From Escherichia coli (GTDB taxonomy: Bacteria > Pseudomonadota > Gammaproteobacteria > Enterobacterales > Enterobacteriaceae): a stretch of DNA of 200 bases. Location of the stretch: the NCBI RefSeq assembly GCF_003334255.1, contig NZ_QOWU01000287.1. One strand, 5' to 3'. A model generated the notes under the pieces. That model did no database searches and was not told where the DNA came from. It saw nothing but the letters and a program-made list of their open reading frames with translations. The stretch's first letter is position 1; each line of letters starts with the position of its first letter. A program made the translations under genes and the position numbers. Positions 1 to 170 of this stretch are shown piece by piece.

Positions 1-129
1 AGAGATGCGTTCCGGTATATCAGGAAGCACTGGGTTGCGTTGTGCAACTTCTGTGATGACGGTCTGGCGGAGGCGGATAATAATGCTGCGGAAAGAGCGC
101 TTCGTGCAGTCTGTCTCGGAAAGAAAAAC
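1..129 (+). CDS. IS66-family transposase (TnpC-type) internal fragment covering the conserved DDG...DNNxAERxxR...LGRKN block; partial at both ends and probably a truncated remnant or pseudogene
   Basis: Frame +1 (codons from nt 1) has no stop and gives RDAFRYIRKHWVALCNFCDDGLAEADNNAAERALRAVCLGKKN. The order and spacing of RY, W-AL, F-DDG, DNN-AER-LR and LG-KN match the conserved C-terminal region of IS66-family transposases as I recall it. Frame +1 remains open to nt 200 but the family similarity ends near nt 129. Codon usage includes AGA/AGG Arg codons, typical of horizontally acquired genes. No alignment was run. Confidence 0.7.
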
Positions 130-170
130 TCTTATGACCTTTGTCAAATATTGAGCCCAAAAAGACCTTA

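What the first reader, a model, noticed from the sequence alone, without database searches (positions are those of the whole stretch)
121..140. Abrupt loss of IS66 homology at an A5 run: likely truncation or recombination junction
After LGKKN the family normally continues with an aromatic-LF-x-GS motif, as I recall it. Here frame +1 gives SYDLCQILS, frame +2 from nt 128 gives TLMTFVKY then stop (TGA 152-154), and frame +3 from nt 129 gives LL then stop (TGA 135-137). A single-base slip in the A5 run (nt 124-128) therefore cannot restore the conserved continuation. GC drops from about 54% (nt 1-120) to about 31% (nt 121-165). Together these point to a breakpoint inside the transposase gene, with unrelated sequence joined at about nt 127-135.
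Basis: partly seen in the sequence, partly recalled or inferred. Interest (0 to 1): 0.45.

Follow-up and report, generated by a model that had tools for sequence, protein, structure and literature searches.

The report
ISEc45 inserted into IS66 transposase gene
The break in the IS66 transposase gene is real: it is the edge of a second, already catalogued mobile element (ISEc45, an RNA-guided IS110/IS1111-type insertion sequence) that inserts at this exact spot in IS66 genes, so it is an ordinary case of one jumping gene landing in another.

Summary
IS66-family tnpC homology (frame +1, ...AERALRAVCLGKKN) ends at nt 130. An intact homologue continues GKKN-FMFFGS, and no frame of the window restores this.

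Nt 131-200 are not random DNA. They are the reverse complement of the last 70 bp of ISEc45, 100% identical to the copy in locus L001. ISEc45 is a 1,447-bp IS110-family, IS1111-group element.

In 149 complete E. coli replicons with the same junction, a full ISEc45 follows and the rest of tnpC then resumes. ISEc45 runs antisense: 377-aa DEDD transposase, 252-nt downstream non-coding region.

The crossover is a 2-bp core, CT at nt 129-130, present on both sides of the insert. The same site, in the same orientation, is occupied in several different IS66 relatives and in a few look-alike sites in ordinary genes.

An internal loop of the ISEc45 downstream RNA, just outside the window, carries two guides: GAAAAAGAAUU and CACGUAG. 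They match the two halves of this target. Natural guide variants and the relative ISSso6 co-vary with their targets.

The A5 run is part of the recognised target, not a slippage site. The kind is already known and interest is low.

The parts
1..130 (+). Fragment of an IS66-family transposase gene (tnpC), frame +1. It corresponds to about residues 426-468 of a 530-aa TnpC, plus the first base of codon 469, inside the DDE_Tnp_IS66 domain. The gene is cut here.
   Evidence: NCBIfam NF033517 transpos_IS66 matches the translation of nt 1-129, E=3.7e-13, profile positions 305-346 of 387. The DNA is 98.4% identical to an intact tnpC. Pfam PF03050 spans residues 189-479 of the intact homologue. Alignment.
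120..130 (-). Right half of the ISEc45 target, core included. On the minus strand it reads AG-TTTTTCTTT. It is predicted to pair with the guide G(A/U)AAAAGAAUU of the ISEc45 RNA (10 of 11 pairs counting three G-T wobbles with the GAAAAAGAAUU guide variant (L001 copy); 9 of 11 with the commoner GUAAAAGAAUU variant).
   Evidence: Flank census of ISEc45 copies. Guide search and RNA fold. Shuffle test.
129..130 (.). Core dinucleotide CT (AG in ISEc45 sense), the crossover point. It occurs once in the uninterrupted target and on both sides of the insert.
   Evidence: Intact AAAAA-CT-TTATG compared with occupied AAAAA-CT-[CTTATGACC...CAT]-CT-TTATG. The ISEc43 target AAAAA-TT-ACGTG gives TT on one side and CT on the other.
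131..200 (-). Last 70 bp of the right end of ISEc45 (element positions 1378-1447). This is the tail of its 252-nt non-coding region downstream of the transposase gene.
   Evidence: 100% identical to L001 3131-3200. In those loci the ISEc45 transposase gene follows on the minus strand. The transposase is near-identical to the ISfinder ISEc45 protein listed in PMC11187229, supplementary file 6.
133..142 (.). Right-end copy of the 10-bp subterminal inverted repeat, TATGACCTTT. Its partner lies 4 bp inside the left end.
   Evidence: 10/10 complementarity between element positions 7-16 and 1436-1445.
142..147 (-). TTGACA hexamer. It is a candidate -35 box of the promoter that would form when the element circularises: TTGACA, 17 nt, then TGnTATGAC in the left end.
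   Evidence: Read directly from the sequence. By analogy with junction promoters shown for ISEc11 and ISEc21 (PMC11187229). Inferred, not tested.

Best explanation
The window spans the junction between an IS66-family transposase gene (tnpC) and the right end of ISEc45, a copy of which has inserted into that gene in the antisense orientation. ISEc45 is an IS110-family, IS1111-group insertion sequence.

Shown:
- Nt 1-130 are tnpC and nt 131-200 are the ISEc45 right end.
- In related loci the insert is 1,447 bp and the rest of tnpC follows it directly.
- The crossover is a 2-bp core, CT on the window's + strand.
- The same position and orientation are used in several different IS66 relatives and in a few look-alike non-IS66 sites.

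Inferred from sequence, supported by published work on relatives:
- ISEc45 excises as a circle. Its DEDD recombinase is then guided by a bridge/seek RNA transcribed from the 252-nt region downstream of the transposase gene.
- An internal loop of that RNA carries G(A/U)AAAAGAAUU on its 5' side. [quoted passage not shown]
- The 3' side of the loop carries CACGUAG (variant CAUAUAG). [quoted passage not shown]
- The conserved GKKN(F/Y) codons of IS66 tnpC are thus a programmed landing site. The A5 run is part of what is read.

Consequence: TnpC loses its last 62 residues (end of the DDE domain and the C-terminal element). In related loci it gains a short nonsense tail.
For: Identity of the two halves
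- The whole window matches 149 E. coli replicons at 97-97.5%. There the IS66 tnpC pseudogene ends at the position equivalent to nt 129, and ISEc45 follows on the minus strand.
- A tnpC remnant resumes after the insert.
- Joining the two L001 flanks with no extra base recreates intact ISEc43 at 100% over 394 nt.
- An intact homologue reads GKKNFMFFGS.

Family of the insert
- The transposase hits NF033542 'IS110 family RNA-guided transposase' at 278 bits, cut-off 140.
- It also hits Pfam PF01548 and PF02371.
- It matches the ISfinder ISEc45 protein.
- Durrant et al. list ISEc45 as IS1111 group with the bridge RNA in the right end.

Site specificity
- Of 100 right-end flanks from metagenome contigs (109 junctions once the E. 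coli loci are added), most read A(A/G)TTTTTCTTTCC or close variants from different IS66 members.
- A few are look-alike sites in a glycosyltransferase gene and in tauA.

Guides
- The two matches lie on opposite sides of one internal loop in the minimum-energy fold.
- One IS66 variant, CACGT-AA-TTCTTTTTC, matches both guides perfectly.
- Both matches arise together in only 5 of 5,000 dinucleotide shuffles.
- The CAUAUAG variant is never next to CACGT (0 of 11) and is next to CATAA in 5 of 11. CACGUAG copies sit next to CACGT in about 24 of 45.
- The relative ISSso6 (44% amino-acid identity) has different loop sequences that match its own, different target.
- The guide order, top-strand match 5' of bottom-strand match, is the one reported for IS1111 seekRNAs (PMC11187229). 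The pairing rule, with the core included in both pairings, is as in PMC11208160.
Against: - The window stops 10 nt short of the predicted guide-RNA hairpin and holds no transposase sequence. Whether this copy is complete, and whether the tnpC remainder lies beyond it, cannot be seen. In L003 the ISEc45 copy is itself truncated by IS3/IS30.
- No exact source of the window was found. The best match is 98%.
- The guide assignment is computational. The target is T-rich and of low complexity, so long matches to it turn up by chance: 32 of 5,000 shuffles reached the 11-nt match on their own.
- The window-type left target, CATAA-AG, pairs only 5 of 7 with the common CACGUAG guide.
- The copies counted are not independent insertion events. 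Some metagenome contigs mix flanks from different sites, through either recombination or assembly chimeras.
- No clear donor-binding right guide was found.
- Rfam has no matching family.
- The terminal 70 nt show no significant fold, z = -0.3.
Confidence: 0.93

Rival explanations
1. The IS66 tnpC is intact, and a frameshift or sequencing error in the A5 run merely hides the reading frame.
For: Homopolymer runs are common indel sites. Megablast of intact IS66 copies runs on to nt 143 with one gap, because TTATG..CTT recurs after the junction.
Against: No frame restores FMFFGS or YVFFGS. From nt 131 the sequence is 100% ISEc45 right end for 70 nt. The same junction is present in 149 finished replicons and in dozens of metagenome contigs.
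Confidence: 0.01
2. The junction is a deletion or illegitimate-recombination scar that joins a truncated IS66 to unrelated DNA. No site-specific insertion is involved.
For: The window alone shows only one junction. IS-rich regions are often scrambled, as seen.
Against: The joined DNA begins exactly at the terminal base of ISEc45. The two tnpC halves abut perfectly once the element is removed. The same base-precise junction recurs in different IS66 family members (ISEc43, ISEc22 and others) and always in one orientation.
Confidence: 0.02
3. The junction was made by an ISEc45 insertion, but this copy was inherited rather than newly inserted. It would have spread by transposition of an IS66::ISEc45 composite, mobilised in trans, or by homologous recombination or gene conversion between IS66 copies.
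For: Identical junctions occur in many strains and on plasmids. Several contigs combine a left flank of one site with a right flank of another, which suggests recombination between ISEc45 copies.
Against: This does not conflict with the main explanation, since it concerns history only. The junction occurs in IS66 backgrounds that are 93-98% identical to the window and in distinct IS66 subfamilies. At least several independent insertions must therefore have happened.
Confidence: 0.35
4. ISEc45 chooses the site through protein-DNA recognition alone, for example through its subterminal repeats and the similarity between its end and the target. No RNA guide takes part.
For: The right end of ISEc45 (CATAAG-AG) resembles the left target (CATAA-AG). 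No RNA data exist for ISEc45 itself.
Against: Relatives in the same group need the non-coding-region RNA for transposition and can be reprogrammed through it (PMC11187229; PMC11208160). The ISEc45 loop sequences match both target halves, and they co-vary with the target in natural variants and in ISSso6.
Confidence: 0.04

Closest known systems
ISEc45 (ISfinder; IS110 family, IS1111 group)
   Same: Nt 131-200 are identical to the right end of annotated ISEc45 copies. The transposase in related loci is near-identical to the ISfinder protein. Durrant et al. list it as IS1111 group with the bridge RNA in the right end.
   Different: Nothing differs in kind. The window holds only the terminal 70 bp. 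The choice of the IS66 tnpC GKKN codons as target, and the two guide variants, were worked out here. I did not find them stated in the papers searched.
ISEc11, ISKpn4 and ISPa11 (IS1111 family, seekRNA shown experimentally; Siddiquee et al. 2024, PMC11187229)
   Same: Subterminal inverted repeats, a short left end, a long non-coding region downstream of the transposase gene, and orientation-specific insertion at a fixed sequence. The RNA carries a top-strand match 5' of a bottom-strand match, and the two overlap at the insertion point.
   Different: ISEc45 Tnp is 377 aa, longer than the 330-350 aa quoted for typical IS1111 transposases. Its target is a coding segment of another IS. No RNA or transposition data exist for ISEc45.
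IS621 bridge RNA system (Durrant et al. 2024, PMC11208160; Hiraizumi et al. 2024, PMC11208158)
   Same: [quoted passage not shown]
   Different: In IS621 the RNA is encoded in the left end and the left guide comes first. In ISEc45 it is in the right end and the order is reversed. A donor-binding loop could not be defined with confidence here.
ISEc21, and IS4321/IS5075 (IS110/IS1111 members that target other mobile elements)
   Same: These are elements whose programmed target lies inside another mobile element. [quoted passage not shown]
   Different: The host element differs: here it is IS66 tnpC, at codons GKKN(F/Y). The relative ISSso6 appears to sit in the GTAAGCG terminal repeat of IS66-family elements.

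Membership tests
IS66-family transposase TnpC (window nt 1-130) | Sequence match to the IS66 transposase profile and to annotated tnpC genes | tested here: met
   NF033517 matches the 43-aa fragment, E=3.7e-13, profile positions 305-346. It scores below the whole-protein cut-off only because it is a fragment. DNA is 98.4% identical to an intact tnpC that scores 448 bits and carries PF03050, PF13817, PF13005 and PF13007.
IS66-family transposase TnpC (window nt 1-130) | Complete open reading frame through the C-terminal element | tested here: not met
   Homology ends at nt 130 and the last 62 codons are missing from the window. This is a disrupted gene, not an intact family member.
ISEc45 (IS110 family, IS1111 group) | Terminal sequence identical to the element's right end, beginning exactly at the junction | tested here: met
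   Window 131-200 equals L001 3131-3200, 70 of 70. The same end is found in 97 metagenome contigs.
ISEc45 (IS110 family, IS1111 group) | DEDD (RuvC-like) N-terminal domain plus Transposase_20 C-terminal domain | tested here: met
   PF01548 (residues 10-158) and PF02371 (227-298); NF033542 at 278 bits. This was tested on the copy in L001, not in the window, which holds no coding part of ISEc45.
ISEc45 (IS110 family, IS1111 group) | Subterminal inverted repeats, a short left end and a long non-coding region downstream of tnp | tested here: met
   10-bp subterminal repeat TATGACCTTT. Left end of 61 nt before the ATG. 252 nt after the stop codon.
ISEc45 (IS110 family, IS1111 group) | Site- and orientation-specific insertion with a shared 2-bp core and no longer target duplication | tested here: met
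   Empty and filled sites compared. Census of 109 junctions.
Bridge RNA / seekRNA-guided recombination | A non-coding RNA with an internal loop whose two sides pair with the two strands of the target, overlapping at the core | tested here: met
   The loop sides G(A/U)AAAAGAAUU and CACGUAG lie opposite each other in the minimum-energy fold. Both matches arise together in 5 of 5,000 shuffles. They co-vary with the target in natural variants and in ISSso6. This is computational only.
Bridge RNA / seekRNA-guided recombination | A donor-binding loop, or another means of recognising the element's ends | tested here: inconclusive
   AUAAGAG(UUU), next to a small hairpin, matches the right end plus core (plus 3 nt of right target). 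No convincing guide for the left end was found.
Bridge RNA / seekRNA-guided recombination | [quoted passage not shown] | not testable with these tools
   Only a candidate promoter, TTGACA-17-TGnTATGAC, can be read from the joined ends. Experiments exist for relatives only (PMC11187229).

The most novel reading that the evidence does not exclude
ISEc45 and its relative ISSso6 may form a small lineage of RNA-guided 'hyperparasitic' insertion sequences specialised on IS66-family elements. ISEc45 reads the conserved GKKN(F/Y) codons of tnpC, and ISSso6 reads the GTAAGCG terminal repeat. The natural guide polymorphism (CACGUAG against CAUAUAG; GAAAAAGAAUU against GUAAAAGAAUU) would be ongoing retargeting that tracks different IS66 subfamilies. 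The tolerated core mismatch (target AA or AT against donor AG, with each junction keeping a different core) would report the order of strand exchange in vivo.
Probability: 0.4. Interest if true: 0.35.

Novelty: already known. Interest (0 to 1): 0.15.

Why it matters
For annotation, the window should be labelled as an IS66 tnpC pseudogene interrupted by ISEc45. It is neither a frameshifted gene nor a strange recombination scar.

More broadly, it is a clean natural example of an RNA-guided IS110/IS1111 element whose programmed address lies inside another transposase gene. Natural guide and target variants could serve as a ready-made data set on mismatch tolerance. None of this changes current understanding of these systems.

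Tried and rejected
- Rfam scan (E-value mode) of the ISEc45 region: no family matched.
- Genome-contig scan with an 18-mer from the right end: only 10 hits in unrelated phyla, about the number I estimate by hand for chance matches to an 18-mer in 298 Gb.
- Search for the exact source of the window: none found. This covered E. coli complete genomes, plasmids, phages, viral contigs and the fetched metagenome loci. The best match was 98%.
- H63, thought to be a diverged relative, is only a truncated ISEc45 pseudogene.
- Promoter and terminator scan of the window: one sigma-70-like hit inside the IS66 coding part (nt 56-84), taken as chance, and no terminator.
- Fold of the terminal 70 nt: not better than shuffles.
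- A frameshift at the A5 run and a natural end of IS66 were both considered and rejected. IS66 ends carry GTAAGCG repeats, and tnpC runs 62 codons further.
- A donor-binding guide for the left end could not be identified.

Full report
**1. The observation**

The window was read and translated in all three forward frames.
- Frame +1 gives RDAFRYIRKHWVALCNFCDDGLAEADNNAAERALRAVCLGKKN, followed by SYDLCQILSPKRPYAAPGASLYR.
- Frame +2 stops at TGA 152-154.
- Frame +3 stops at TGA 135-137.
- The A5 run is nt 124-128.
- GC is 54.2% over nt 1-120 and 31.1% over nt 121-165.

The translation of nt 1-129 hits the NCBIfam IS66 transposase model (NF033517, E=3.7e-13, profile positions 305-346 of 387).

An intact tnpC that is 98.4% identical over nt 1-128 (L005) continues GGAAAGAAAAACT-TTATGTTCTTCGGCAGC, which translates GKKN-FMFFGS. 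The window lacks this in every frame. The loss of homology is therefore real, and it falls after nt 130.

**2. What is joined there**

The whole 200-nt window aligns without gaps at 97-97.5% to 149 complete E. coli replicons. In three of them (L001-L003) the layout is the same:
- An IS66 or ISEc43 tnpC pseudogene, annotated 'missing C-terminus', ends at the position equivalent to nt 129.
- An 'IS110-like element ISEc45 family transposase' gene follows on the opposite strand.
- A tnpC remnant, annotated 'missing N-terminus', resumes about 1.45 kb further on.

Nt 131-200 are 100% identical to L001 3131-3200. They are the reverse complement of the last 70 bp of ISEc45.

The element is 1,447 bp:
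- a 61-nt left end;
- a 377-aa transposase with PF01548 (DEDD) and PF02371 domains, which hits NF033542 'IS110 family RNA-guided transposase' at 278 bits;
- a 252-nt non-coding region after the stop codon.

The protein is near-identical to the ISfinder ISEc45 protein reproduced in Siddiquee et al.. Durrant et al. list 'ISEc45 RE IS1111', meaning IS1111 group with the bridge RNA predicted in the right end.

**3. Exact junction**

- The uninterrupted IS66 site is AAAAA-CT-TTATG. The occupied site is AAAAA-CT-[CTTATGACC...CAT]-CT-TTATG.
- For ISEc43 copies, I joined the two flanks of L001 with no extra base. The product matched intact ISEc43 at 100% over 394 nt in many genomes.
- That target is AAAAA-TT-ACGTG, and the occupied site is AAAAA-TT-[...]-CT-ACGTG.

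The crossover is therefore a 2-bp core, which is nt 129-130 in the window. One junction keeps the target's own core and the other carries the element's CT.

A 10-bp subterminal inverted repeat, TATGACCTTT, lies 2 bp inside the right end (window 133-142) and 4 bp inside the left end.

**4. Site specificity**

I looked at six further E. coli copies and 97 metagenome contigs that hold the right-end 22-mer. Right flanks in ISEc45 sense:

| Right flank | Copies | Note |
|---|---|---|
| AA-TTTTTCTTTCCGAG | 30 | |
| AG-TTTTTCTTTCCGAG | 24 | the window's type |
| AA-TTCTTTTTCCCGAG | 13 | |
| AG-TTTTTGCGGCCCAG | 11 | ISEc22-type |
| AG-TTTTTATTTCC | 5 | |
| single sites | a few | include a glycosyltransferase gene and tauA, with look-alike sequences |

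- Left flanks are GAACACGT, GAACATAA, GAACAGGT, GAACATGT and similar.
- The orientation is always antisense to tnpC.
- The same base-precise site is therefore used in several IS66 subfamilies. This calls for repeated, sequence-directed insertion.

**5. How the site is probably read** (inference, outside the window)

The downstream non-coding region folds into a long hairpin with a basal stem at positions 3-21 / 155-173, z = -2.4. It contains an internal loop with two sides.
- The 5' side is GAAAAAGAAUU (positions 37-47). It is the exact complement of AATTCTTTTTC, and it pairs with AG-TTTTTCTTT in 10 of 11 positions if G-T pairs are counted.
- The 3' side is CACGUAGAAA (positions 76-85). CACGUAG has the sequence of left target plus core, CACGT-AG, so it would pair with the bottom strand.

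This agrees with the published rules. [quoted passage not shown] In IS1111 seekRNAs the top-strand match lies 5' of the bottom-strand match (PMC11187229).

Four lines of support:
- One natural IS66 variant, CACGT-AA-TTCTTTTTC, matches both sides perfectly.
- Both matches arise together in 5 of 5,000 dinucleotide shuffles.
- Natural ISEc45 copies carry either CACGUAG or CAUAUAG. The CAUAUAG copies are never next to CACGT (0 of 11) and sit next to CATAA in 5 of 11. About 24 of 45 CACGUAG copies sit next to CACGT.
- ISSso6 (44% amino-acid identity) has the same layout, but its loop sides are UUAGCGCU and CGUAAG. These match its own flanks, GCGTA-AG-CGTTAA, which are the GTAAGCG terminal repeat of IS66-family elements.

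Of the copies whose last 70 nt equal the window, 13 of 16 are of the CAUAUAG class. That class fits the window's CATAA-AG target better.

Caveats:
- The copies are not independent events.
- The target is of low complexity.
- Some contigs mix flanks from different sites.
- No convincing donor guide for the left end was found.
- Rfam has no matching model.

**6. What the window itself contains of ISEc45**

It holds only the tail of the right end:
- the subterminal repeat;
- a TTGACA hexamer (142-147, minus strand), which would lie 17 nt from TGnTATGAC of the left end in a circularised element and is a plausible junction promoter by analogy with ISEc11 and ISEc21;
- three small hairpins that fold no better than shuffles.

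The predicted guide-RNA hairpin starts 10 nt beyond nt 200.

**7. Consequence for IS66**

The insertion falls after codon 468 of a 530-codon tnpC, inside PF03050 (residues 189-479). It removes the end of the DDE domain and the C-terminal element. In L002, read-through adds a 47-residue nonsense tail.

**8. Rivals**

- A frameshift at the A5 run is excluded by the alignments.
- A random deletion scar is excluded by the base-precise recurrence and by the perfect rejoining of the flanks.
- Whether this particular copy arose by new insertion or was inherited with its IS66 host cannot be told from 200 nt.
- Protein-only targeting is unlikely, given the experiments on relatives and the covariation seen here.

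**9. Verdict**

The explanation is ordinary: a catalogued IS1111-group element, ISEc45, sits in its preferred site within an IS66 transposase gene.

The kind is already known. The target assignment, the guide variants and the core-mismatch pattern are small additions. I did not find them stated in the papers searched.

Noticed in passing
L001 3129-3131 and 4575-4578; metagenome loci L022-L118: When the target core differs from the element's AG (targets with AA or AT), the left junction in ISEc45 sense always reads AG. The right junction keeps the target's own dinucleotide. This may reflect the order of strand exchange or the repair of a mismatched core.
   Followed up: partly
window 131-143: The ISEc45 end, CTTATGACCTTTG, resembles the IS66 sequence it displaced, TTATGTTCTTCGG. 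As a result, megablast of intact IS66 copies runs on to nt 143 with one gap. It may be chance, or a donor-target similarity around the core.
   Followed up: no
L037 4875-5046; L071 1586-1704; L092 3684-4086: A full or partial ISEc45 is followed directly by an extra partial copy of its own right-end tail. The extra copy starts at internal AG sites (element positions 1276, 1329, 1099). One of these is the DNA that encodes the CACGUAG guide. The origin is unexplained: self-targeting, or one-ended recombination.
   Followed up: partly
L120 1072-2590; L121 about 600-620; L122 about 745-760: ISSso6, a 44%-identical relative of ISEc45, sits after GTA-AG in the GTAAGCG terminal inverted repeat of IS66-family elements. 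Both relatives therefore target IS66-family DNA, but at different places. Its boundaries were inferred from one copy and two partial empty sites.
   Followed up: partly
metagenome loci, table: Some ISEc45 copies have a left flank from one site and a right flank from another, for example IS66 on the left and tauA-like on the right. This points to rearrangement by recombination between ISEc45 copies, or to assembly chimeras.
   Followed up: no
L005 2811-4391: In the plasmid with the intact tnpC, a reverse transcriptase/maturase gene (group II intron-like) starts 8 nt before the tnpC stop codon. A group II intron RT also lies upstream in L002.
   Followed up: no
L003 3383-5816: In E. coli 55989 the ISEc45 copy at this junction is itself truncated by IS3-family and IS30 elements, giving three levels of nesting.
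   Followed up: no
window 56-84: A sigma-70-like match (ATGACG-17-AATAAT, 9 of 12) lies on the + strand inside the IS66 coding sequence. It is probably chance.
   Followed up: no
L002 3130-3270: The truncated tnpC frame stays open for 47 codons into the antisense of the ISEc45 right end, so a TnpC(1-468)-plus-tail fusion could be made.
   Followed up: no
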